The notes under the pieces: model-generated | The model's input: the letters and a program-made list of their open reading frames with translations, nothing else | Told to the model about the DNA's origin: nothing | The model's database searches: none | Made by a program: the position numbers and the translations under genes | Shown here: piece by piece, positions 1-45,396 of the stretch | How the letters are laid out: every line of letters begins with the position of its first letter | How positions within the stretch are numbered: the stretch's first letter is position 1 | Assembly: GCA_013626165.1 (NCBI GenBank) | Contig: NDHX01000003.1 | Span: 115-64,114 of the forward strand | Length of the DNA: 64,000 nucleotides | Source of the DNA: Candidatus Velesiimonas alkalicola | Lineage (GTDB): Bacteria; Omnitrophota; Gorgyraeia; Velesiimonadales; Velesiimonadaceae | Direction: 5' to 3'

Positions 1-2527
1 ACTACCCCGTCAACCTTCGGTTGACACCCCTTCAAAGAAGGGGAATTCTGACGGGGTGTTTTCAATTCTTTTGAAATACCTGATTTATCATAAGCCAAAA
101 CTTTTTTCATTCTCGGTAAAACCACGCTGTAAAAATGCTCACCCATTTCAACGCCAAGCCATTTTCTGCCAAGTTTATGCGCAACTGCGGTTGTCGTGCC
201 AGAGCCGAGGAAGAAGTCAAGAATTAGGTTTTCTCTTTCTGATGTGCTTTCAATTACCCTCTTTAAGACAATTTCTGCGTTCTCTGTTTGAAAGCCGATA
301 GTAAAAGTATATCCTTGAACATCTGTCCAATTAGTGTCCAAGGGTATCTTTTCTGATTCTAAATATTGTGGAATACCTGTTTTTTCGTTTATTCGTATTC
401 TTTCTTCAGATGCTAATTTGTCAAATTTTTCTTGAGAGAATCGCCAGTGTTGACCGGGAGGACACTTATATTCCTTTCCAAAAATTATAACTGTATTTTT
501 CTCTTTATTCTCTTTGGGAGAAAGACAATTAACCCATTTGATTTCTCTGTTTCTCTCTTTGAAAACTGGCAGAAAATAACTTAATATAGTTTTAGGATAA
601 TAAAACAATGATTCATTTGCTGGATTAAAGTTGTTTAATGGGCCTTGACTATTTGCTTTTCTTAAAATAATCTCTCTAAAATTATTTTTATTGTCTGAAA
701 ATAATTCATCCATCAAACACCTTACAATCCAATTCCCATTGTAGTCGCACCTAACAAAAATACTCCCTTTTTTATTTAAAACATCTTTTGCAATCTTTAA
801 TCTATTTTCAAGCAGTGTTGCCCAGTTGGCGTCTTTATAGTTTGTGCGGTATAAAAACTGGTCAGAAGAAGCTAAATTAAACGGCGGGTCAATGTAAATT
901 GTCTGCACTTTTTCTTTGAATTTCGGCAGGATTGTATTTAACGCCTGATAGTTTTCGGACTTTATCAGCCAGCCGTCTAAAGATTTATCTAAATCGTCAA
1001 ACTGGCTCAAAATTTCAAGTTCTAAATCCTTGAAATATTTTGTGTCTATGGGTAAATGCTTAAATTCCCCTTTTATTAAAAGGGGTGTCTGCGGAGCAGA
1101 CGGGGTATTTTCTTTTATCCAACTTTGTATTTGTTCAATAACCGAATTAATGCTTTTTTTTACATCTATATCTCTAAAATGAAGAACTTTTAATCCTAAA
1201 GATTGCAAATATTTCTCTCGTTCTTCATCACATTCAATTTTAAAATTGTGGCTTTCACCATCTATCTCAATTACTAATCTCAAATTTGGACAATAAAAAT
1301 CAACAATGCAATTACCTATGATTTGTTGACGAGTAAAGTCAAATCTTAATTTTTTATTTTTTAATTCATTCCATAAAAGAACCTCTGATAAATTTCCGGC
1401 CTTTCTTAATTCCCTTGCCCTTTGTTTTAAGTTTTGATTGTATGGTAATTTTAAATACCCCGTCAGTCCTTCGGACCGCCACCCCTTTACAAAAGGGGAA
1501 TTTTCAAAAACATCTTCTATCTTAAAATTTTCATCCACAATGCCAAGTTCCTGCCATTCTTTGATTTGCTCTCTAAAATTTTTATGCTTCAAGATTCTCT
1601 CTAATAAATTCCCCTCTTTTAGAGGGGTGTCTGCGAAAGCAGACGGGGTGTTTGCCTCTTTTAGAGGGGTGTCTGCGAAAGCAGACGGGGTGTTAGTCAG
1701 TTTATCTTTTAAATACTCTAATACTTCTTCCAAATTTTTCTTTACATCTAGATCAGAAATATGAATAACTTTGAGCCCAAGACTTTTTAAGCAATTATCT
1801 CTTTCTTTGTCATATTCTATCTTTCCATCGTGACTTACTCCGTCAATTTCAATAACAACTCCCAAATTCTTACAATAAAAATCAACTATATAATCTCCTA
1901 TAATTTTTTGTCTATCAAAATCTAAACTCAAAAATTTTTTATTTTTAACTTGATCCCAGAATAAAACTTCTGATAAATTGCCGGCTTTTCTTAACTCTTT
2001 TGCTCTTTCTTTTAGGTCAGGATTAAATGGTAATTCCTTCCATTTGACTACCCCGTCAGGCTTCGCCTGCCACCCCTTCGTAGAAGGGGAATTCTTGTAA
2101 ATCCTATCCAGCGTAATCACATAATTTGAGTTTTTGACAAACTTCGGCTTGTTCCAGATATTTACCAGTTCATCTTCAAACTGCGAGATAAAATCAATAA
2201 TTTTGAAAGCGATGCCTTTGAGAATTTGTAGTTGATTGACTCTATCCGCGCCCCACTCTTTGGCTCCTTCCCAAAAATACTGATAACTCCAAAGTTTAAA
2301 TTGCTCCTGCAAGAATGCTTTGGCATTTTTGTTGATAAAGAAATCAACCTCGCTCTGCTTTTCAAAAACTCTAAAAGCGCGTTCTAATTGTTCTTCGGTA
2401 ATTGCTATGCCTTTTCTCTTGATGGCTTTTAAGAGCTCGTCCTGTTTTGTTTTTGCACCTCCTTCTGAATACTGAACGTCAAAAACAATGGTGGCGCCTG
2501 CCCCGTAGGAAGCCGAAGGCTTTCCCA
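1..2527 (-). CDS. Composite DNA methyltransferase, continuation and C-terminal part (partial, runs off window start). Reading 5' to 3' on the minus strand it encodes: an N-terminal extension region, two tandem DUF559 / Vsr-like PD-(D/E)xK domains (~1860-1700 and ~1330-1170), then a beta-class amino-methyltransferase (motif IV IYIDPPFN at ~885, motif I DFFLGSGTT at ~175). No ATG start exists in this frame, so it is best read as joined to the 2429..3130 ORF through a frameshift. Type III Mod-like.
   Basis: Manual minus-strand translation gives one continuous open frame from ~2527 down to nt 1. Recognisable segments include VDFYCPNLRLVIEIDGESHNFKIECDEEREKYLQSLGLKV (DUF559), a second diverged copy (VDFYC...VIEIDGVSHD), QTIYIDPPFNL and LILDFFLGSGTTTAVAHKLGRKWLGVE. 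Five REP-like GC-rich elements are translated in-frame. Confidence 0.6.
6..58. repeat. GC-rich double-hairpin REP-like element (family A), copy in the methyltransferase C-terminal coding region
   Basis: ccccgtcaaccttcggttgacaccccttcaaagaaggggaattctgacggggtg. Nested hairpins GTCAACC/GGTTGAC and CCCCTT/AAGGGG. Confidence 0.7.
1063..1107. repeat. Family A REP-like element (in-frame in CDS)
   Basis: aattccccttttattaaaaggggtgtctgcggagcagacggggta. Encodes ...NTPSAPQTPLLIKGEF... Confidence 0.7.
1456..1503. repeat. Family A REP-like element (in-frame in CDS)
   Basis: taccccgtcagtccttcggaccgccacccctttacaaaaggggaatt. Encodes NSPFVKGWRSEGLTGYLK. Confidence 0.7.
1608..1693. repeat. Family A REP-like element, tandem duplicated (in-frame in CDS)
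   Basis: Two copies of cctcttttagaggggtgtctgcgaaagcagacggggtg. Encodes NTPSAFADTPLKEANTPSAFADTPLKE. Confidence 0.7.
2048..2096. repeat. Family A REP-like element (in-frame in CDS)
   Basis: ctaccccgtcaggcttcgcctgccaccccttcgtagaaggggaattc. Confidence 0.7.
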
Positions 2528-3130
2528 CGGGTCTTCGCGGACTTTGCTTAACTCAAAAACAAGCGAGCGTTTTTCGTTGGCTTTTTTGCTTTCTATCTTT
2601 GAAGCGTCAAAGTAGAACTTTAAATACCCCGTCCCTTCGGGACACCCCTTTTGCAAAGGGGAATTAACACCCCGTCCGCCTTCCCCTTCTACGAAGGGGT
2701 GGCAGGCGAAGCCTGACGGGGTAGTTTCTGACACCCCTCTATCAGAGGGGAATTCAACTGGCAAACTCCTGAAAATCCGGTCGGTTTTAACATAGTAAAG
2801 CATCTGCGTTTTCCAGAAGAGGATAACATCTTTTTCATCGGTATAAACCTTTTCGTAGATATTGTTATGAAATGGCGTTGAATTGAAATAAATTGACCCG
2901 CTTTCCGTAAAATAGCGGCTGAAAAAGGAATAGAGTTTGTCAAAAAGTTCATCTCTAAATTTGGGGTGGCTTTTTAGAGCCGATTCAACATCTTTCTTGA
3001 GGATGTCTTCAATCTTGCGGTAGTAATTTGATTTTATTCTCATCAAATTAACAAAACCGCCAGTGCCTTCAATTTTGGCGCCGATAAATACATCCTGTAG
3101 TGCTTTATAAAATTTTTGTTCTTTGGTCAT
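2429..3130 (-). CDS. N-terminal ORF (233 aa) of the composite methyltransferase. Its last ~35 codons are out of frame relative to the downstream continuation. A -1/+1 frameshift lies inside a GC-rich hairpin at ~2500-2531, so this is a likely pseudogene or a sequencing error in the hairpin.
   Basis: ORF track gives ATG at 3130. The C-terminal tail SLRLPTGQAPPLFLTFSIQKEVQKQNRTSS looks out of frame, while the alternative frame continues as ...ATIVFDVQYSEGGAKTKQDELLKAIKRKGIAITEEQLERAF... An in-frame REP-like cluster at 2625-2756 encodes ...SETTPSGFACHPFVEGEGGRGVNSPLQKGCPEGTGYLK... Confidence 0.55.
   Translation of the reverse strand: MTKEQKFYKALQDVFIGAKIEGTGGFVNLMRIKSNYYRKIEDILKKDVESALKSHPKFRDELFDKLYSFFSRYFTESGSIYFNSTPFHNNIYEKVYTDEKDVILFWKTQMLYYVKTDRIFRSLPVEFPSDRGVSETTPSGFACHPFVEGEGGRGVNSPLQKGCPEGTGYLKFYFDASKIESKKANEKRSLVFELSKVREDPWESLRLPTGQAPPLFLTFSIQKEVQKQNRTSS
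2625..2756. repeat. Cluster of three family A REP-like elements (in-frame in the N-terminal ORF)
   Basis: taccccgtcccttcgggacaccccttttgcaaaggggaatt ... ccccgtccgccttccccttctacgaaggggtggcaggcgaagcctgacggggta ... acacccctctatcagaggggaattc. Confidence 0.7.
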
Positions 3131-3137
3131 AGTTAAA

Positions 3138-3344
3138 TCACTTTAATAAATTATCAACTGAAACATCAAGGGATTTGGCTAATTTTTGAAGCGCACCAAT
3201 TAAGAGATAGATGATACCGTCCAACTCCAGTTTTATCACCGTGTTATAGGAAATATCAGCCAATTTAGAAAGCCGGTCTTGCGACAAGCCCTTTTGTTTC
3301 CTTAACTTTTTTATATTTTTGCCTATTTGTGAAATCTCTCTTGA
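3138..3344 (-). CDS. Small XRE-family helix-turn-helix regulator. It resembles an R-M controller (C-protein) and lies 7 nt upstream of the methyltransferase, co-oriented with it. No canonical start codon is present in the frame.
   Basis: Minus-strand translation ...ISQIGKNIKKLRKQKGLSQDRLSKLADISYNTVIKLELDGIIYLLIGALQKLAKSLDVSVDNLLK*. The stop (TGA) is the reverse complement of 3138-3140. An in-frame TAG lies upstream at 3390-3392 with no ATG/GTG/TTG between, so the start is non-canonical or the gene is degenerate. Confidence 0.5.
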   Translation of the reverse strand, partial: SREISQIGKNIKKLRKQKGLSQDRLSKLADISYNTVIKLELDGIIYLLIGALQKLAKSLDVSVDNLLK

Positions 3345-3568
3345 TATTGTGGTATTAAAATAATAATATGTATGTAGAGTAATCGCTATCTATAATTATA
3401 ATACAAAATGATTTTCATAATATAAAAAGATTTTTTGAGAAGTTTAATTTCAAATGCATGTGCACCCCAATAATAGAACGCTTTGCGTTCACTACGGGGC
3501 AGGAAGAAGGGATGGACCAAGGGCATTTACCTTTTTTCTTTTCTAAAAATCGGCGGGCTAATTCAATT

Positions 3569-3645
3569 TGGTGGGCGGTAGAGGACTTGAACCTCTGACC
3601 CCTTGCATGTCAAGCAAGTGCTCCAACCAACTGAGCTAACCGCCC
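3569..3645 (-). tRNA. tRNA-Val (anticodon GAC), CCA encoded
   Basis: Reverse complement GGGCGGTTAGCTCAGTTGGTTGGAGCACTTGCTTGACATGCAAGGGGTCAGAGGTTCAAGTCCTCTACCGCCCACCA folds as a cloverleaf. Anticodon loop is CTTGC-TTGACAT-GCAAG. Confidence 0.85.
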
Positions 3646-3681
3646 ATAGCAGTCTAATTTTGCTATAATCTCCGATGTTAA

Positions 3682-3751
3682 ATGACAAATGTCAAAATCC
3701 AAATGTCATTTGAGATTTGTCATTTGTCATTTATTTCCCATTTGTCATTTG
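3682..3751. repeat. Tandem and inverted TGTCATTTG 9-mer repeats (5-6 copies) upstream of tRNA-Val
   Basis: atgacaaatgtcaaaatccaaatgtcatttgagatttgtcatttgtcatttatttcccatttgtcatttg. Confidence 0.6.
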
Positions 3752-3924
3752 AGCTTTAGAATGTGGGCGAGGTGGGAATATGAACCATCGCTGGCGCTCT
3801 TTAAGGGAAAACCAAGTTTTTCCCTTAATGTTCCTTTTCCTTTCAAAACACAGGGGAAAACTTACCTTTTCCCCTGACCCCTTTGGTGGTTCAAATCCCT
3901 TATCATCCTTTTTCTGCTTAAATG

Positions 3925-4007
3925 TGGGCGAGGTGGGATTTGAACCCACACAACTTTACAGTCATTGGATTTTAAGTCCAACGTGTATGCCATTCCACCA
4001 CTCGCCC
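3925..4007 (-). tRNA. tRNA-Leu (anticodon TAA), long variable arm, no encoded CCA
   Basis: Reverse complement GGGCGAGTGGTGGAATGGCATACACGTTGGACTTAAAATCCAATGACTGTAAAGTTGTGTGGGTTCAAATCCCACCTCGCCCA. Anticodon loop is TTGGA-CTTAAAA-TCCAA. Confidence 0.85.
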
Positions 4008-25824: not shown

Positions 25825-26066
25825 TTTTTTCTTAAAAAAAATATACCGCTCTGTTAATTCCCATTCCCTTTTATGGCAAGAGTATATTCCGTTGTCTGTT
25901 TATCTTGTACTTCATACAATACTGGGGTGGTAGCGTTTATTTGACCAAATCTGAACTTTTTTGCCTGCGCCTGCCAAAGTCCGAAGGACAACAGAGGGAG
26001 CAAAACTGACGCTCCGCCCCCCAGAGGCCTTTGAATCACTCTACATTCAAAAAATCTCAGTGATTC

Positions 26067-26456
26067 TCATTTCATTAGCCTGCTCACCAGCCAGATAACC
26101 ACCACGAGCACCAGTATCACTAATGCCAGCTTGATGATGCCCGGCCCCACCAGCCTGGCTGCTACCAGAATAAACACCAGCAAGATAACAGGCACGATAA
26201 ACCAGCCCCAGAACCTCCCGGATGGTAATTCCCTCATGGAGGTTACTCCCCCGGAGTGATCATATGCCGCCCTCCTGTCAGAATCGGAGAGCACCTCATA
26301 GGCTTCATTAAGCTGCTTCATCTTCTCGGCCGCATCCGGCGAGGTGCTCACATCGGGATGGTACTTTGCTGCCAGTCGGCGATAGGCGGCGACGACCACC
26401 TCTCTGTCTGCCTCGGGATGGACCTGCAGGGTAGCGTAATAGTCAGGCTTTCCCAT
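26067..26456 (-). CDS. J-domain (DnaJ-like) membrane protein, inside the high-GC island
   Basis: 129 aa. DYYATLQVHPEADREVVVAAYRRLAAKYHPD plus a C-terminal TM helix. GC-rich codon usage. Confidence 0.7.
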   Translation of the reverse strand: MGKPDYYATLQVHPEADREVVVAAYRRLAAKYHPDVSTSPDAAEKMKQLNEAYEVLSDSDRRAAYDHSGGVTSMRELPSGRFWGWFIVPVILLVFILVAARLVGPGIIKLALVILVLVVVIWLVSRLMK

Positions 26457-26472
26457 TGCCTAAGTGCGGTTC

Positions 26473-27339
26473 TCATTCCCTGGGCTGCGGACTCACCAGG
26501 AATCTGAAGAGCTCGGAGTTAGATCCCAACACCAGGGTAGTTTCCCCAACAAGGAATTTCTCGTATGCCTCCAGTGTCCTCAGAAAGGCGTAGAACTCAG
26601 GGGCTTGCCCAAAGGCTTCGGCATAGATGCTGGCGGCCCCAGCTTCTCCCTCTCCCCTGAGGATCAGGGCAGCCCTCTCAGCCTCGGCCAGTAGAACCAC
26701 TACCTCTCTATCTGCGCTGGCCCTGATTTTCATGGCCTCCTGTGCCCCTTCAGCACGAGCCTCCTTGGCCATCCGGTCTCGCTCCGCTCTCATCCGGGCA
26801 AAAACAGCCTCTTCTACCCCTTCAGGGAGGTCGGCCCTTCTCATCCGGACGTCTATTACCTCGATACCAAACTCACGGCGAGCAACCTCATCTACATGTC
26901 GGCCTACGGTCTCCATAATCGGCTTCCTCTCGACGCTAATTATGTCCCAGAGGTTGTGTCGAGCAATCTCCTCCCGTAATCTGGAGATAGCAATGCTATT
27001 TAACCTGAGCCTGGCCCCATGTTCATCTCTTACCGACTCGTAAAATCGGAGCGGAACTACAATCCGCCACCGGCTGTAACTATCCACCAGCAGCCTCTCT
27101 TTGTCCAGGGTAATGAACTCCGTCGCCGGGGCATCAGCAAACAATATCCTTCTTTCCATGCGGGATACTGTTTGAATGAAAGGGACTTTGAAGTTTATCC
27201 CTGGTTCCTTGATCGTCCTTATATATTCCCCAAATTGCAGAATGATCGCCTGCTCAGCCTCGTCTATCGTAAATATGGTCTGACCTAACATGAACATGGC
27301 CGCCACTACGATTATTACGGTTATCATTAATTTTCTCAT
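26473..27339 (-). CDS. hflC: HflC (SPFH/band-7 protease modulator), inside the high-GC island
   Basis: 288 aa SPFH domain. GC-rich. Confidence 0.8.
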   Translation of the reverse strand: MRKLMITVIIVVAAMFMLGQTIFTIDEAEQAIILQFGEYIRTIKEPGINFKVPFIQTVSRMERRILFADAPATEFITLDKERLLVDSYSRWRIVVPLRFYESVRDEHGARLRLNSIAISRLREEIARHNLWDIISVERKPIMETVGRHVDEVARREFGIEVIDVRMRRADLPEGVEEAVFARMRAERDRMAKEARAEGAQEAMKIRASADREVVVLLAEAERAALILRGEGEAGAASIYAEAFGQAPEFYAFLRTLEAYEKFLVGETTLVLGSNSELFRFLVSPQPRE

Positions 27340-28370
27340 TGTTCACCCCCCAGGTCCCTCAGTGGCAGAAACGGCATCAGGTTGCCGCCGACTGCGGGAT
27401 CGATAATGATTTTCTCGGTTCCGGCAAGAACCCGTTCTATCGTCTCCAGGTATAGCCTCTGTCGGGTCACTGCCGGTGCCATCTGGTACTCCGCAAGAAT
27501 TTTGAGAAACCGCGCTGTATCACCCTCAGCCAGCGCTATCCTTTCGTCCCTAAAGGCAGTGGCGGCGTGTGTTTTCGCTGCCGCCTCTCCCCTGGCTCGG
27601 GGAACTATATCCCGGGCGTACCCTTCAGCCTCTCTCTGAAGCCTTTCCCTATCTGCCTTAGCCCGGACCACATCGTAGAAGGCTTCCCTGACTTCTTCTG
27701 GCGGGTCCACTACCTGTAGTTCCACTCTAATTACATGCAGTCCCGTCAGATGAGCATCCAGCAGAGACTGCAGAAACTCCCAGGTTCCTGCTTCTACATC
27801 AGGGCGACCCACGGTCATCGCATGATCAATATCCATGTTCCCGATAACACTGCGCAGGGCGACCTCAGTATTTACGCGCAGAGCCTCCTCGGGACCTTCA
27901 GTCCGGAATAGATAGGTAGGTGCATCCTTCACCTGATAAAGCACCAAAACCTGGACATCAGCGATATTCCTATCCCCGGTGAGCATCAGCGATTCCAATG
28001 GCATTCGCGCGTGTCTCGGCGGTCTCCCCGGCCTCTCTACCGTCCGAAAGCCGATCTCGGCCCTCCTTACCGCAAGCACATTCACCACATTATGGCTCTG
28101 AATTGGCCAGGGCAGGCGATATTTCAACCCGGGGTCAGTTTGGGATACAAATTTCCCGAATTGCCTCACCACCCCCACTTCGGCGGGCCCAACCGTGTAG
28201 ATTCCACTTGCCAGCCAGATTGCCACCACAACCCCTATTACGAGCCATATTATTGGCCCTATCTTCACCGGCTTGCCCTTCTTCTCACCACCCATCCACC
28301 CGACTATCTCCTGCCAGATATCCTCCCATGGCATCTGGCTTCCTGCTCCTCCTCCTAATCCTCCGTTCAC
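27336..28370 (-). CDS. hflK: HflK (SPFH/band-7 protease modulator), inside the high-GC island
   Basis: 344 aa. VGPAEVGVVRQFGKF... Overlaps the hflC start. GC-rich. Confidence 0.8.
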   Translation of the reverse strand: MNGGLGGGAGSQMPWEDIWQEIVGWMGGEKKGKPVKIGPIIWLVIGVVVAIWLASGIYTVGPAEVGVVRQFGKFVSQTDPGLKYRLPWPIQSHNVVNVLAVRRAEIGFRTVERPGRPPRHARMPLESLMLTGDRNIADVQVLVLYQVKDAPTYLFRTEGPEEALRVNTEVALRSVIGNMDIDHAMTVGRPDVEAGTWEFLQSLLDAHLTGLHVIRVELQVVDPPEEVREAFYDVVRAKADRERLQREAEGYARDIVPRARGEAAAKTHAATAFRDERIALAEGDTARFLKILAEYQMAPAVTRQRLYLETIERVLAGTEKIIIDPAVGGNLMPFLPLRDLGGEQ

Positions 28371-28687
28371 TTCTACGCCTCCTTTCTTTTTTCTACTCGT
28401 TTTACTCGTCCGGGTTCCGTTCCCGGAGAGACTTGATTTTACACTTCATATAATACAGTTAATGTGTTTATTTAACCAAACCTAAACCCTTTGCCTGCTC
28501 GCCAAAACCCGAAAAGCAACGAAGGGAACTAAGCCAACCGCTTCTGTTTTGCTCCGGCGGCAACGCTTCCGACATATTTACTCTGTTCTCCACAACGAGA
28601 AAAACATAAACCCTGATTGATTGGGAATTTCCTCTAAATTATTTTCAATTGGTCTTGTTTTTAAGTTAATTTTCCCATACAATTTTA

Positions 28688-29533
28688 TTACTTATACCTT
28701 TGCCATTTTACTTTTGTAGTAGAATTAGAATTTTCAACTTTACTATCAGGTTTTTTTGCTAAAATTAAATATTTAAATCCTCGCAAAAAGAAATTAAATT
28801 TTTGGGCCCGATAATGCCAAATTCTAGTATTTGAGCTTTGATTTTTTCTTGTAACACATATTAAATCTACGGGCTCAAATTTTATATTATCAATTAACAT
28901 TTGATAAATTTTTAATCCAACAGGAGTAAATTTTTTCTTTACCCATTGGTCACCAATAAGCCACCCTATTACCTTACCGGGTTTCAAAATTCTGTAAATC
29001 TCCCCGGCAACCTTTTCTAATTCCTCGAAAAATTTTGGACCCTCGGCAGAAATTTTACCAATATCTGCAAGCTCGTTAGAATAATTAACGTTATCGCCAT
29101 AAGGGGAATCTATAAAAACCATATCTACCGAATTATCTTTAAGTGGAATTTTCCGCGAATCATTTTTTACAACTTTGGGGTGCTGCGGGTTTATATCATA
29201 GCCGATTACTTTTCTTCCTTCCTCCTCACAGACATCAATCGTTGTTCCGCTCCCGCACATTGGATCAACTACCAAATCGTCCGGCCTCGTGTATCTTTGT
29301 AGCATATTCCAAATGATAAAAGCAGGTGTAACGCCCTGAAACTTATTATTGCCTTTTGGTTTTTTGCCGTAGCTTTGCCTTGAAAAATCCCAAAGGGTGG
29401 TCGTCTCAAAAGGTGGTTTTTCTTCTTCTATTTTCTTCTTTTTTATTTCTCTCTCGTTCGAACTTTCATTCAGTTTTTGAGATTTTATCTCACCAATTTT
29501 TGTATTCTGTTTTACGGCTATTGTGTTTTGCAT
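28688..29533 (-). CDS. Small orphan N6-adenine/N4-cytosine methyltransferase (motif I DPMCGSGTT, then motif IV IDSPYG)
   Basis: 281 aa. VTPAFIIWNMLQRYTRPDDLVVDPMCGSGTT resembles the PF01555 AdoMet region. DSPY lies ~55 aa downstream. No adjacent restriction gene. An RNA methyltransferase of the RsmD type is not fully excluded. Confidence 0.6.
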   Translation of the reverse strand: MQNTIAVKQNTKIGEIKSQKLNESSNEREIKKKKIEEEKPPFETTTLWDFSRQSYGKKPKGNNKFQGVTPAFIIWNMLQRYTRPDDLVVDPMCGSGTTIDVCEEEGRKVIGYDINPQHPKVVKNDSRKIPLKDNSVDMVFIDSPYGDNVNYSNELADIGKISAEGPKFFEELEKVAGEIYRILKPGKVIGWLIGDQWVKKKFTPVGLKIYQMLIDNIKFEPVDLICVTRKNQSSNTRIWHYRAQKFNFFLRGFKYLILAKKPDSKVENSNSTTKVKWQRYK

Positions 29534-29827: not shown

Positions 29828-30178
29828 TGGTGGAGGTGGCGGGAATCGAACCCGCGTCCTGAAAACCCTGGCCAAGGTATCTACATCCGTGTCTATTCTA
29901 TTGTCTTTCGCAGTACAAAACACCGAACAGCAGGTTTCTTATACCACTATGGCTTATTGTTCTTGTTCACAGGTTCAAGCCCGAAACCTGCGAACCAGCC
30001 TGCAAACCGACATCCTTTCAAATCTTACAGGCAGAGATTTGAAGGATGTGACTGCTTAAGCAGCCAATGCTAAGTGTTCGTTAGCGTTTGTTTTTTGTCA
30101 GGTTTTCAACGAGGCCACCTGACAACCTCGGGATGCAACCTTCACCAGCAATTTTTCAGTCGAGCCCTATTCACCCCC
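29828..30178 (-). ncRNA. ssrA: tmRNA (ssrA), tag peptide ANEHLALAA
   Basis: 5' end GGGGGTGAATAGGGCTCGAC. 3' end GGACGCGGGTTCGATTCCCGCCACCTCCACCA. Internal reading frame GCT AAC GAA CAC TTA GCA TTG GCT GCT TAA. ~351 nt. smpB adjacent. Confidence 0.85.
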
Positions 30179-35387: not shown

Positions 35388-35423
35388 GTTTGATTATTGA
35401 CAATAAGAATTAAACAAGTATTT

Positions 35424-35524
35424 CATTCCCCTTTGAGTAAAGGGGTGTCCCGACTTTGTCGGGACAGGGTATTTCCCTTTTGTAGGGTTGTGTCTTGTGA
35501 ATACCCCGTCAGGCTTCGCTCGCC
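35424..35524. repeat. Intergenic cluster of family A REP-like elements (between the TPR gene and ilvE)
   Basis: cattcccctttgagtaaaggggtgtcccgactttgtcgggacagggta ... ataccccgtcaggcttcgctcgcc. The ORF-track 69-aa ORF 35423..35632 is just its translation. Confidence 0.7.
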
Positions 35525-35610
35525 TTCCTCTTCATATTCAAGCCTCTTCGGTCTTATGGAAGGGAAATAAGCGGACAGAAACGCACAAATAGTATACCAT
35601 ATTAGGCTTT

Positions 35611-44768: not shown

Positions 44769-44810
44769 AATTCCCCTCTTATAAGGGGGTGTCCTAAAAG
44801 GGACGGGGTG
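44769..44810. repeat. Intergenic family A REP-like element (between korD and the NTase-fold gene)
   Basis: aattcccctcttataagggggtgtcctaaaagggacggggtg. Confidence 0.7.
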
Positions 44811-44811
44811 T

Positions 44812-45396
44812 TTAAGAGTGTTGCAGCATTTTTAATTTTCTAAACCGTTTATCTTTATGCACAATTTTTGAAAGATTTAATGCCTTCTCCTTTTCCTTTT
44901 GCCCCATCACTGAAAGTAAATTCAAGATATCGTATTCATCTTTTAAGCCCCCGGCTTGAAGCTTCATTGCCACAAGATATGGCTTTGAAAAACAAGGAAA
45001 AGCAAGCCCTAAATCCTCTGCATTTTCAAGAGCTTCTATTTCCCATCCATAATGTGCAAATAAAATATCTATTGTCGGACACTCGCCCTCAATATGAGCA
45101 ATCCGTATAAGTGAATGTTTAAGGGGGTCTGAAATATTTGTAAAAGGTTTGTATTCAACATTAAAATCTAAAAGTTTTTGCTTCAAAAAAATAAAAAGGT
45201 TTTCAGGGTCAATCTCTTTCTGATTCTTATCAGTTATAACTACACATAAATCAACATCCATTGTTGTTCTCGGCACACCCTGCGAAATGATCGCCTGCCC
45301 ACCGATTAAAGCAGCCTTAATGTTGCAATTTTTTAATCTGCTAAACTTCTCTAAATTTTTTTTGACCAATCTTAAGGTACTCTTGATAGACTTCAT
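44812..45396 (-). CDS. Nucleotidyltransferase-fold protein (minimal NTase motif GGQAIISQGVPRTTMDVDL); start uncertain
   Basis: 194 aa. Overlaps the upstream small ORF by 56 nt. Confidence 0.45.
   Translation of the reverse strand: MKSIKSTLRLVKKNLEKFSRLKNCNIKAALIGGQAIISQGVPRTTMDVDLCVVITDKNQKEIDPENLFIFLKQKLLDFNVEYKPFTNISDPLKHSLIRIAHIEGECPTIDILFAHYGWEIEALENAEDLGLAFPCFSKPYLVAMKLQAGGLKDEYDILNLLSVMGQKEKEKALNLSKIVHKDKRFRKLKMLQHS

What the first reader, a model, noticed from the sequence alone, without database searches (positions are those of the whole stretch)
1..3392. Degenerating R-M-like module: C-protein-like HTH plus a giant composite methyltransferase with two tandem DUF559 nuclease-fold domains
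The minus strand from ~3130 to nt 1 (and beyond the window) reads as one very long gene. In order it encodes a ~200-aa N-terminal domain, a further region (FLQEQFKLWSYQYFWEGAKEW...), and two tandem DUF559 (Vsr-like PD-(D/E)xK) domains, each showing the VDFYC...VIEIDG(E/V)SH signature. These are followed by a beta-class amino-methyltransferase with motif IV QTIYIDPPFN about 237 aa before motif I DFFLGSGTT, which is Type III Mod-like spacing. A small XRE HTH gene ends 7 nt upstream, the arrangement expected for an R-M controller protein. Two features argue for decay. The 233-aa N-terminal ORF goes out of frame inside a GC hairpin at ~2500-2531, while the downstream frame has no ATG for more than 800 codons. 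The HTH gene has no canonical start codon. A methyltransferase carrying two nuclease-fold DUF559 domains in a single chain is an unusual architecture. If functional it could behave as a single-chain restriction-modification or defence enzyme. The partner gene (a possible Res) would lie beyond the window start.
Basis: partly seen in the sequence, partly recalled or inferred. Interest (0 to 1): 0.8.

Follow-up and report, generated by a model that had tools for sequence, protein, structure and literature searches.

The report
Selfish nuclease cassettes inside a methyltransferase gene
The "giant composite" gene is an ordinary, widely shared Type III-like DNA methyltransferase gene that has been colonised, in frame, by two small DUF559 nuclease cassettes and about ten GC-rich hairpin repeats; this looks like an undescribed kind of tiny mobile element that can sit inside a protein-coding gene without breaking its reading frame.

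Summary
The minus strand 3130→1 reads as one gene, broken once at about 2493-2530. It carries two DUF559 domains and a beta-class methyltransferase, and an HTH gene ends 7 nt upstream. The interpretation as a designed methyltransferase-nuclease fusion is not supported. With the repeats and DUF559 segments removed, the protein aligns end to end, at 70-79% identity, with thousands of ~800-aa Mod-like methyltransferases that lack DUF559. Each DUF559 segment has no start or stop codon of its own. Each is bracketed by inverted copies of a ~47-nt double-hairpin unit. Homologues carry three DUF559 lineages at two different linker sites. The same nuclease-plus-inverted-hairpin cassette occurs free-standing, or fused to unrelated genes, in many phyla. 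Embedded copies are under strong purifying selection (dN/dS 0.03-0.17). The frameshift is a 35-nt hairpin insertion that lacks one T of a perfect palindrome; restoring that T gives 36 nt in frame. My best reading is a selfish, REP/RAYT-like or homing-like DUF559 element family that tolerates translation through itself. That the nuclease mobilises the hairpins is inferred, not shown. I found no description of it in the searchable literature.

The parts
3141..3347 (-). XRE-type HTH open frame (69 codons). It has no ATG, GTG or TTG before an internal TTG at 3287. Its stop (3138-3140) lies 7 nt before the methyltransferase ATG.
   Evidence: Pfam HTH_3 E 7e-10. Weak PADLOC hits to HTH_VI, capH and Control_protein. 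The counterpart in L004 is a 70-aa gene with an ATG.
2750..3130 (-). Host methyltransferase, N-terminal segment (MTKEQKFY...RSLPVEF).
   Evidence: Near-identical to insertion-free homologues P0002 and P0009.
2621..2749 (-). Cluster of three hairpin units (129 nt; insertion-free L005 has 9 nt, L004 has 45). It stays in frame. The middle unit (2681-2725) lies inside hairpin A of the first unit. It is a 45/45 inverted copy of the unit at 2047-2091, so it looks like a recent nested copy.
   Evidence: (I2).
2493..2530 (-). A different 35-nt hairpin insert (CCGTGGGAAAGCC-TTCG-GCTTCCTACGG...) that shifts the frame. Its 3' arm lacks one T of the perfect palindrome. With that T restored the insert is 36 nt, in frame and free of stops.
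   Evidence: 38 nt here against 3 nt (GGA/GGC) in L005 and L004. The frames are shown.
2100..2492 (-). Host methyltransferase, middle segment (TIVFDVQY...NYVITLDRI).
2046..2093 (-). Left hairpin unit of cassette A (AATTCCCCTTCTACGAAGGGGTGGCAGGCGAAGCCTGACGGGGTAGTC; peptide NSPSTKGWQAKPDGVV).
1698..2045 (-). DUF559-A nuclease domain (116 codons). It has no start or stop codon of its own.
   Evidence: Pfam PF04480. PDB 3hrl at E 5e-9. dN/dS is 0.04-0.14 against copies in L006-L011.
1608..1697 (-). Two tandem right hairpin units of cassette A (ACACCCCGTCTGCTTTCGCAGACACCCCTCTAAAAGAGG...), inverted relative to the left unit.
   Evidence: (D6).
1503..1607 (-). Host linker between the two insertion sites (LLERILKHKNF...IEDVFE).
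   Evidence: Aligns with the same linker in homologues.
1455..1502 (-). Left hairpin unit of cassette B (peptide NSPFVKGWRSEGLTGY).
1110..1454 (-). DUF559-B nuclease domain. It is 63% identical to DUF559-A, a separate lineage shared with P0005 and P0007.
1062..1109 (-). Right hairpin unit of cassette B (peptide NTPSAPQTPLLIKGEF).
60..1061 (-). Host methyltransferase catalytic region. The PF01555 match is at nt 908-126, motif IV IYIDPPFN at 899-876 and motif I DFFLGSGTT at 218-192.
1..59 (-). Third insertion site: a truncated right unit plus a left unit (TPRQ|NSPSLKGCQPKVDGV), cut by the window edge. Homologues continue with YQGGGFFKYYELEQYE... for about 135 more aa.
35420..35530 (.). Intergenic cluster of the same hairpin units elsewhere in the window.
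44769..44814 (-). Solo hairpin unit immediately after the stop codon of ORF 44812..45396.

Best explanation
The locus is a Type III-like mod gene with an XRE HTH gene upstream. The mod gene belongs to a highly conserved family of about 800-aa proteins that transfers horizontally.

The gene has been invaded by a family of small selfish elements. The autonomous form is about 0.45 kb. It consists of a left double-hairpin unit (AATT-CCCC..GGGG-TG-[GTCnnn..nnnGAC]-GGGGT), a DUF559 (Vsr-like PD-(D/E)xK) nuclease reading frame, and the same unit inverted on the right.

In the intragenic copies the nuclease frame has neither a start nor a stop codon, and the hairpin units are open in the frame used. 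The whole cassette would therefore be translated as an extra domain in a linker of the host protein, and the host gene stays open. Solo units and unit dimers are the non-autonomous derivatives. They also sit in frame at several linkers and in intergenic DNA.

**Shown:** the anatomy, the insertion polymorphism, the bracketing repeats, the covariation in the hairpin stems, the purifying selection on the nuclease, and copies in unrelated loci.

**Inferred:** that the DUF559 nuclease nicks or cleaves the hairpin units (as cruciform or single-stranded DNA). Such cuts would promote copying of cassettes and solo units to new sites, by a homing-like or REP/RAYT-like route.

In this genome the mod gene is currently split. 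A separate 36-nt hairpin insert lost one base. This is most likely a very recent real mutation, and less likely a sequencing error.
For: 1. **Insertion-free relatives.** The protein with repeats and DUF559 removed (661 aa) aligns over 100% of its length, at 70-79% identity, with thousands of ~780-830-aa methyltransferases that have PF01555 only. Only 14 of the 120 best hits carry PF04480.
2. **Precise insertion points.** The alignment shows insertions at linkers between near-identical host blocks. Lineage A sits at site 1 in the window, L006, L009, P0088, P0118 and P0120, but at site 2 in P0001, L007 and L008. Lineage B sits at site 1 in P0005 and at site 2 in P0007 and the window. Lineage C sits at site 2 in P0012, P0041 and P0057. 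The closest pair of DUF559 sequences (L006 and L007) lies at different sites.
3. **DNA-level insert sizes.** The inserts add 120, 480 and 444 nt relative to L005, all multiples of three. The fourth adds 35 nt and causes the frameshift.
4. **Bracketing repeats.**
   - Each DUF559 has a left unit and an inverted right unit.
   - Across 71 DUF559 loci from many phyla, 33 have flank-to-flank inverted repeats scoring at least 14. None of 60 control flank pairs does.
   - L013 has a perfect 33-nt inverted pair.
5. **Structure is conserved rather than sequence.** Among 104 units there are 46 distinct hairpin-A stems. The mean perfect stem is 4.3 bp against 2.5 in shuffles. Hairpin B has 2.6 extra pairs against 0.45.
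6. **Purifying selection.** dN/dS is 0.03-0.17 among embedded DUF559-A copies, with synonymous sites saturated.
7. **Same cassette elsewhere.** It occurs free-standing, in other methyltransferase-like ORFs (L011, L012, P0211, P0224), and read through into downstream ORFs. I identified those ORFs by eye from their N-terminal sequences as IspG-, LipA- and CysQ-like (L036/L037, L013, L049).
8. **Discrete repeated elements.** Two loci of one isolate genome (Cyclobacterium jeungdonense, L065 and L068) share a 0.83-kb DUF559 element at 91% identity within unrelated flanks.
9. **Recent activity here.** A 45/45-identical inverted copy of cassette A's left unit is nested inside another unit 590 nt away (I2).
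10. **Unit subtype follows DUF559 similarity, not host taxonomy**.
Against: - No biochemical or genetic evidence links DUF559 to the hairpin units; the association is positional only.
- I found no clean pair of filled and empty sites in near-identical hosts, so no target-site duplication or exact insertion chemistry could be defined.
- Solo dimers in homologues are arranged right-left (L004 site 1). A simple excision footprint would be left-right.
- Units are sparse in the rest of the window: two other loci in 61 kb.
- Only about half of the DUF559 loci pass the flank-repeat test.
- Strong purifying selection on embedded copies would also fit a domain that is useful to the host.
- The structure model of the host protein is poor (pLDDT 61). 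The claim that the sites are surface loops rests mainly on alignment variability and domain boundaries.
Confidence: 0.72

Rival explanations
1. Designed fusion. The methyltransferase and the two DUF559 nuclease domains form one functional single-chain restriction-modification or defence enzyme.
For: All parts lie in one reading frame. DUF559 is a restriction-endonuclease-fold domain. The embedded copies are under purifying selection. About 12% of the closest homologues also carry a DUF559.
Against: - Most homologues lack DUF559.
- Position and lineage vary between close relatives.
- The domains are bracketed by inverted repeats, which also occur around free-standing DUF559 genes and around DUF559 copies fused to unrelated housekeeping-type genes.
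- Homologous loci already have a separate Res (ResIII+YagJ) partner.
Confidence: 0.07
2. Domesticated passenger. The cassettes arrived as mobile DNA, but the DUF559 domain is now kept because it benefits the host Mod protein, for example as a nicking or repair activity tethered to the methyltransferase.
For: dN/dS is low in embedded copies. DUF559 is found repeatedly in DNA methyltransferase genes of at least two families.
Against: Low dN/dS is equally expected for an active selfish nuclease. The same cassettes occur in genes I identified by eye as IspG-, LipA- and CysQ-like, and as stand-alone ORFs. No fixed position is kept within the family.
Confidence: 0.1
3. The hairpin units are REP-like elements of the host, spread by some other enzyme or by recombination. 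On this view DUF559 genes merely tend to sit next to them and play no part in their mobility.
For: Solo units occur without DUF559, both in intergenic DNA and in genes. CGTC-tagged REPs of similar form are reported to lack a dedicated transposase (PMC3733652).
Against: The units sit in inverted orientation tightly against both ends of DUF559 in many phyla. Unit subtype tracks DUF559 similarity rather than host taxon. Cassette plus units recur as one block at different sites.
Confidence: 0.1
4. Assembly or sequencing artefact. Repeats caused a chimeric join, or the frameshift is an error.
For: The region is full of near-identical GC-rich hairpins. The frameshift is a 1-nt loss in a T run inside a hairpin.
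Against: The same architecture is seen in more than 14 independent assemblies from different sources. The window agrees with three independent short-read contigs at 99.87-99.98% identity with no gaps over 4.7 kb nearby. Only the single-base frameshift could plausibly be an error.
Confidence: 0.03

Closest known systems
Rickettsia palindromic elements (RPE) and intragenic REPs (Ogata et al. 2000, from my own knowledge; Di Nocera et al. 2013, PMC3733652)
   Same: Short palindromic repeats inserted in frame, without stops, into conserved protein-coding genes. They add 15-45 aa in variable regions. They occur as single units, dimers and clusters.
   Different: Here a subset of the insertions carries a complete nuclease domain between two inverted units. 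No mobilising enzyme is known for RPEs or CGTC-REPs. The unit here is a double hairpin with C- and G-tracts, not the RPE sequence.
REP/RAYT (REPIN) systems (PMC2817692, PMC3116915)
   Same: A nuclease gene flanked by inverted copies of a hairpin repeat, with the same repeat dispersed as singlets and dimers. Stem sequences vary while pairing is kept.
   Different: The protein is a Vsr-like PD-(D/E)xK domain (PF04480), not an HUH/Y1 transposase. The gene itself is clearly multi-copy, moves horizontally and inserts inside genes, whereas RAYTs are mostly single-copy and vertically inherited.
Vsr-like homing endonucleases (fractured genes, PMC2677866; I-Bth0305I, PMC3239194)
   Same: A Vsr-fold nuclease acting as a selfish passenger in conserved genes, including DNA-metabolism genes.
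   Different: Those sit in group I introns, or between split-intein halves, with their own start and stop codons. Here there is no intron (no Rfam hit) and no intein domain. The frame is continuous with the host. The flanking inverted hairpin units have no counterpart there.
Type III restriction-modification Mod subunits (EcoP15I Mod 4zcf, M.HpyAXVII-type 6k0w; PADLOC MTase_III PDLC03638)
   Same: The host gene is of this type. It is a beta-class methyltransferase with DPPF before FxGxG, and a homologue matches PDLC03638 over its full length. Related loci have a Res-like helicase-nuclease downstream.
   Different: The family has an N-terminal region of about 330 aa of unknown role. In related loci variable cargo genes lie between mod and res. 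Some members are in phage-like contigs without res.
GC clusters and byp elements of yeast mitochondria (from my own knowledge)
   Same: GC-rich hairpin mini-elements that colonise AT-rich protein-coding genes.
   Different: Byp elements are skipped by the ribosome. Here nearly all inserts are multiples of three and free of stops, which points to plain translation.

Membership tests
Type III Mod-like beta-class N6/N4 DNA methyltransferase | PF01555 domain with motif IV (D/S)PP(Y/F) upstream of motif I FxGxG | tested here: met
   PF01555 E 3e-30. IYIDPPFN is at 899-876 and DFFLGSGTT at 218-192.
Type III Mod-like beta-class N6/N4 DNA methyltransferase | Full-length similarity to a curated Type III methyltransferase model | tested here: met
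   The insertion-free homologue P0002 (79% identical to the cleaned window protein) matches PADLOC PDLC03638 MTase_III at positions 3-816 of 816, E 7e-282. Mod structures 6k0w and 4zcf are the nearest solved relatives.
Type III Mod-like beta-class N6/N4 DNA methyltransferase | A res (helicase-nuclease) gene in the same operon | not testable with these tools
   The relevant DNA lies beyond the window start, and the window's own contig could not be retrieved. In L004, L086 and L087 a ResIII+YagJ protein follows after variable cargo.
DUF559 / Vsr-like PD-(D/E)xK nuclease (PF04480) | Pfam PF04480 match above the gathering score, with the conserved D...ExD...H core | tested here: met
   186 bits against a cutoff of 20.6, in two stretches. 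VDFYC and IEIDGxSH are present in both copies. 3hrl matches at E 5e-9. NCBIfam PRK09767 matches at E 5e-17.
DUF559 / Vsr-like PD-(D/E)xK nuclease (PF04480) | Nuclease activity and its substrate | not testable with these tools
   I found no characterised member of this clade in the literature searches.
Homing endonuclease in an intron or intein | Residence in a self-splicing intron or an intein that restores the host product | tested here: not met
   No Rfam intron family matches in the window. No intein or Hint domain appears in the Pfam scan. The frame is continuous with the host.
REP/RAYT system | An HUH/Y1 tyrosine transposase as the associated protein | tested here: not met
   The protein between the repeats is PF04480, a PD-(D/E)xK fold.
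REP/RAYT system | Nuclease gene flanked by inverted hairpin repeats that are also dispersed in the genome | tested here: met
   Dispersed units lie at 35420-35530 and 44769-44814.
CGTC-tagged REPs (Di Nocera 2013) | A CGTC tag, then an 8-9-bp stem beginning with AT, a 4-5-nt loop and a CCA tail | tested here: inconclusive
   Hairpin A reads C-CGTC-AGGC-TTCG-CCTG-CCA, so the tag and tail fit. But the stems are 4-7 bp, lack the leading AT pairs, and a second hairpin is always attached.
In-frame palindromic insertions of RPE type | Inserts are multiples of three, free of stops, and located between conserved blocks of an otherwise intact protein | tested here: met
   Inserts add 120, 480 and 444 nt relative to L005. 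One exception adds 35 nt.
R-M controller (C) protein | A small HTH just upstream of, and co-oriented with, an R-M gene, plus a C-box operator | tested here: inconclusive
   The HTH_3 domain and the position fit. PADLOC Control_protein matches only at E 2e-5, behind other HTH families. There is no canonical start codon. The C-box was not examined. Most homologous loci lack the HTH.

The most novel reading that the evidence does not exclude
DUF559 proteins are a huge family with no assigned function. On this reading they are the nucleases of a widespread class of minimal autonomous mobile elements. Each element is about 0.45-0.8 kb: hairpin unit, Vsr-like nuclease, inverted hairpin unit. Their non-autonomous derivatives would be GC-rich REP/RPE-like palindromes, possibly including the 'orphan' CGTC-type REPs. 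The elements have evolved to be readable straight through, so they can live inside protein-coding genes with no intron or intein.
Probability: 0.35. Interest if true: 0.8.

Novelty: new variant of a known kind. Interest (0 to 1): 0.62.

Why it matters
If the reading is right, four things follow.

- **A role for DUF559.** It would give a role to DUF559, one of the large domains of unknown function in prokaryotes.
- **A candidate mobilising enzyme.** It would supply a candidate enzyme for palindromic repeats that have none, such as CGTC-type REPs and RPE-like in-frame elements.
- **A third way to live in a gene.** It would show a way, besides introns and inteins, for a nuclease-encoding selfish element to reside in a gene: being translated through in a tolerant linker.
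- **A practical warning for annotation.** "Novel domain architectures" such as methyltransferase+DUF559, or DUF559 fused to what look like IspG, LipA or CysQ genes, can be insertion products rather than functional fusions. The short GC-rich peptides that litter predicted proteins from metagenomes (NSPSLKGWQAKPDGVV, TPLKEGN and similar) can be translated repeat units.

Tried and rejected
- **Retrieving the window's own contig** to read past nt 1 and to check the frameshift. Exact-protein look-ups of the 233-aa ORF and the 49-aa HTH found nothing. LpxA found only 2.9-4.7-kb short-read contigs that stop at tRNA-Leu.
- **Metagenome scan for the frameshift hairpin**, allowing TT or TTT: no hits.
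- **Viral contigs scan with DUF559-A:** one weak hit, so no sign that the cassette is mainly phage-borne.
- **AlphaFold model of the insertion-free homologue,** to show that the insertion sites are loops. Confidence was low (pLDDT 61, pTM 0.32), because the alignment is shallow in diversity. I use it only as weak support.
- **A covariance model of the unit** was not built. MAFFT misaligned the variable hairpin A, so I counted stems by script instead.
- **Programmed frameshifting at the break** was considered and rejected. There is no canonical slippery heptamer in the 70-nt overlap, and a single missing T of a palindrome explains the shift.
- **Intein or intron explanations** were rejected.
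- **Literature searches** for DUF559, COG2852 or PF04480 as mobile elements, and for restriction-endonuclease-like nucleases with MITE-like ends, found no prior description. The library lacks most subscription journals, so this is not proof of novelty.

Full report
**Observation**

On the minus strand an ATG at 3130 opens a 233-codon ORF that ends at 2429. A second frame is open from 2498 to nt 3 (832 codons) and runs off the window. The other two frames of that strand contain 71 and 79 stops over the same stretch, so the open frame is maintained.

- Pfam finds two DUF559 stretches (PF04480, E 2e-55) and an N6_N4_Mtase domain (PF01555, E 3e-30) in the 832-aa translation.
- The 69-codon frame 3347-3141 matches HTH_3 (E 7e-10) and stops 7 nt before the ATG.
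- Two details need correction. The downstream frame has its first ATG at codon 596, not beyond 800. The motif IV to motif I distance is 227 aa.

The region is studded with a ~47-nt GC-rich repeat.

- In one orientation it reads AATT-CCCCTTCTACGAAGGGG-TG-GCAGGCGAAGCCTGAC-GGGGTAGT. This is hairpin B, built on CCCC/GGGG, then hairpin A, then a second G-tract. The other orientation is its reverse complement.
- The probe pattern for hairpin B matches seven places in 1-2760, most on both strands because the hairpin is palindromic. It matches only two places in the remaining 61 kb. Shuffled sequence gives 0.05 matches.
- A left unit (2093-2046) directly precedes DUF559-A (2045-1698), and two inverted right units (1697-1608) directly follow it.
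- A left unit (1502-1455) precedes DUF559-B (1454-1110), and an inverted right unit (1109-1062) follows it.
- Further units form a cluster at 2749-2621 and lie at the window edge (59-1).
- Neither DUF559 segment has a start or stop codon of its own.

**Is this a designed fusion?**

I removed the repeats and DUF559 segments and bridged the frameshift. The resulting 661-aa protein aligns over 100% of its length, at 70-79% identity, with thousands of ~780-830-aa methyltransferases that have only PF01555. These come from Patescibacteria, Atribacterota, Acetothermia, Ignavibacteria, Desulfurella and others. Only 14 of the 120 best hits also contain PF04480.

A multiple alignment shows near-identical host blocks, interrupted at a few variable linkers by repeat-encoded peptides and DUF559 segments. 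Positions and lineages differ between relatives.

| DUF559 lineage | At site 1 (after NYVITLDRI) | At site 2 (after EDVFE) |
|---|---|---|
| A | window, L006, L009, P0088, P0118 (Rosettibacter firmus), P0120 (Leptonema) | P0001/L004, L007, L008 |
| B | P0005 | P0007, window |
| C (flanked by a different repeat) | none seen | P0012, P0041, P0057 |

The most similar pair of DUF559-A sequences, L006 and L007, occupies different sites.

Relative to the insertion-free gene in L005, the window carries four insertions. They add 120 nt at LPVEF|KFYFD, 35 nt at KVRED|TIVF, 480 nt at site 1 and 444 nt at site 2. At least 50 more nt are added at site 3.

This is insertion polymorphism, not an ancestral domain architecture. 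Both DUF559 cassettes lie in the variable linker just N-terminal to the PF01555 match (nt 908-126). Site 3 lies just after that match. A structure model of the clean homologue places all the sites between secondary-structure elements, but the model is poor (pLDDT 61).

**The cassette elsewhere**

- **Close relatives of DUF559-A.** They are mostly short stand-alone ORFs (115-260 aa). Their ends carry the same repeat peptides (NSPSLKGWQAKPDGVV ... NTPSxxADTPLKEGN). They come from bacteria of many phyla and from an Aenigmarchaeota MAG.
- **Eighty genomic loci.**
  - DUF559 lies inside the same methyltransferase family in L006-L010.
  - It lies inside other large methyltransferase-like ORFs in L011 and L012; P0211 and P0224 are similar.
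  - It is read through, without a stop, into downstream ORFs in L036/L037, L013 and L049. I identified these by eye from their N-terminal sequences as IspG-, LipA- and CysQ-like.
  - Otherwise it stands alone.
- **Flanking units.** A strict pattern for the double-hairpin unit finds, in locus after locus, one unit on the minus strand just upstream of DUF559 and one on the plus strand just downstream. L013 has a perfect 33-nt inverted pair.
- **Pattern-free test.** In 33 of 71 loci the two 150-nt flanks contain an inverted repeat scoring at least 14. None of 60 control flank pairs taken 635-800 nt further out does.
- **Unit subtypes.** The subtype (CCCCTCT.., CCCCTCC.., CCCCCTTT.. without hairpin A, and others) follows DUF559 similarity rather than host taxonomy.
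- **Stem variation.** Stems vary while pairing is kept. There are 46 different hairpin-A stems among 104 units. The mean perfect stem is 4.3 bp against 2.5 in shuffles. Hairpin B has 2.6 extra pairs against 0.45.
- **Copies within one genome.** Two loci of Cyclobacterium jeungdonense KCTC 23150 share a 0.83-kb DUF559 element at 91% identity (the coding part is almost identical) within unrelated flanks. In L065 another copy begins immediately after the first.

**Is the embedded nuclease alive?**

Embedded DUF559-A copies (window, L006-L011) give dN/dS of 0.03-0.17 with saturated synonymous sites. Both window copies keep the family's conserved core. Because they lack their own start codons, they can only be made as part of the Mod polypeptide.

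Within this gene, the 45-nt unit at 2047-2091 has a 45/45 identical inverted copy at 2681-2725. That copy sits inside hairpin A of another unit, and the other unit is intact in L004 (I2). This looks like a recent nested copy.

**The frameshift**

At KVRED|GTIVF, homologues have one glycine codon. The window has 38 nt: CCGTGGGAAAGCCTTCGGCTTCCTACGGGGCAGGCGCC. This is another hairpin insert. Its 3' arm (GGCTTCC) lacks one T relative to the complement of its 5' arm (GGAAAGCC). With that T restored the insert is 36 nt and reads EDPWESLRLSYGAGATIVF in frame.

No other lesion exists in about 2.5 kb. Nearby sequence agrees with three independent short-read contigs at 99.87-99.98% identity without gaps. 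A very recent real 1-nt deletion is therefore most likely, although an error in a GC hairpin cannot be excluded. I could not retrieve reads or other assemblies of this stretch.

**The host module**

- The clean homologue matches PADLOC MTase_III PDLC03638 end to end (E 7e-282). Its nearest solved relatives are Mod subunits 6k0w and 4zcf.
- Related loci read Mod, then variable cargo, then a ResIII+YagJ protein of about 980 aa. The cargo is Peptidase_M78 plus DUF4411, or SIR2 plus a DUF87-domain (HerA-like) protein plus ThsB-TIR, or three unknown genes.
- One homologue sits in a phage-like contig.
- A res gene beyond nt 1 is therefore plausible but unseen.
- The HTH is present only here and in L004. 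Here it lacks a canonical start. Its match to controller-protein models is weak.
- The module lies next to tRNA-Val and tRNA-Leu. The independent contigs all end at tRNA-Leu. This fits a strain-variable island.

**Mechanism**

*Shown:*
- a compact cassette (hairpin unit, DUF559, inverted hairpin unit);
- insertion polymorphism in a conserved gene;
- in-frame, stop-free design;
- selection on the nuclease;
- structural conservation of the hairpins;
- dispersed solo units and repeated copies in unrelated loci.

*Inferred:*
- that the Vsr-like nuclease recognises and nicks the hairpin units, as extruded cruciforms or single-stranded hairpins;
- that repair or recombination then copies cassettes and solo units to new places, in the manner of homing endonucleases or of REP/RAYT systems.

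I could not define a target duplication or an excision footprint. Solo dimers are arranged right-left, not left-right, so the insertion chemistry remains open.

**Comparison with what is known**

- The behaviour resembles Rickettsia palindromic elements and intragenic REPs, which are in-frame palindromic inserts.
- It resembles REP/RAYT systems, in which a nuclease gene lies between inverted hairpin repeats.
- It resembles the Vsr-like homing endonucleases of introns and split inteins (PMC2677866, PMC3239194).
- It is not a member of the last two groups. The protein is not an HUH transposase, and there is no intron or intein.
- Hairpin A resembles the CGTC-tagged REPs, which were reported to lack a dedicated transposase (PMC3733652). 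The stem rules do not fully fit, so this is a lead only.
- Searches of the held literature for DUF559, COG2852 or PF04480 found no description of such cassettes.

**Verdict**

The "single-chain restriction-modification enzyme" reading is replaced by selfish DUF559/hairpin cassettes inserted in frame in a Type III-like mod gene that has just acquired a 1-nt frameshift. I rate it a new variant of known kinds of selfish element. Interest is moderate to high, because it suggests a function for DUF559 and a source for orphan palindromic repeats.

Noticed in passing
window 26000-28400: A block with 52-56% G+C in a window that averages about 37%. It encodes a J-domain membrane protein (26067-26456), an HflC-like protein (26473-27339) and an HflK-like protein (27336-28370), identified by eye from the translations. 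It looks like a horizontally acquired segment.
   Followed up: partly
window 28688-29533 (-) and 29828-30178 (-): A second, small DNA methyltransferase-like ORF (281 aa, with GSGTT and DSPY motifs) lies next to the tmRNA gene. That is a typical island integration site.
   Followed up: no
window 3569-4007: tRNA-Val and tRNA-Leu lie between the HTH/Mod module and the lpx genes. Three independent short-read contigs of the same organism (L001-L003) all end at about 3921-3925, inside tRNA-Leu. This suggests that the R-M module is a strain-variable island.
   Followed up: partly
L036 2443-2772, L037 3001-3342, L013 3001-3339, L049 3001-3345: DUF559 frames with no stop codon read through hairpin-unit peptides into downstream ORFs: 536-563 aa open downstream in L036/L037, 295 aa in L013, and 285 aa in L049. 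I identified these ORFs by eye from their N-terminal sequences as IspG-like, LipA-like and CysQ-like. Annotation would show these as odd N-terminal fusions.
   Followed up: partly
L027 3342-4208 (Gammaproteobacteria MAG chromosome OZ255827.1): Fourteen hairpin units lie in 6.3 kb around a DUF559 gene. They include a run of units spaced 126 nt apart downstream of the gene.
   Followed up: no
L065 2600-3620 and L068 2580-3620 (Cyclobacterium jeungdonense): A 0.83-kb DUF559 element is shared by two loci of one isolate genome (91% identity, coding part nearly identical). In L065 a further copy starts head to tail right after it.
   Followed up: partly
L089 3541-4330 (E. coli K-12 ycjD, NC_000913.3 1351040-1351829): The E. 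coli DUF559 gene ycjD ends in a GC-rich hairpin (CCCTCTCCCTGAAAGAGCGAGGGGG). This is followed by a partial duplicate of the gene's own 3' end and by a second GC-rich hairpin with G-tracts (CCCCTCTGGGGAGAGGGTTAGGGTGAGGGG). A different hairpin overlaps its start.
   Followed up: partly
L004 13125-20960, L086 11165-16531, L087 10496-15111, L005 8641-10079: In homologous loci, variable cargo lies between mod and a ResIII+YagJ res gene. The cargo is SIR2_2 plus DUF87 (HerA-like) plus ThsB_TIR, or Peptidase_M78 plus DUF4411, or three unknown ORFs. The mod-res pair seems to act as a frame for other defence-type genes.
   Followed up: no
window 3347-3141: The HTH frame has no ATG, GTG or TTG until codon 21. 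Only ATA or ATT codons preceded by AGAGAG could start a full-length product. It is either a pseudogene or uses a non-canonical start.
   Followed up: partly
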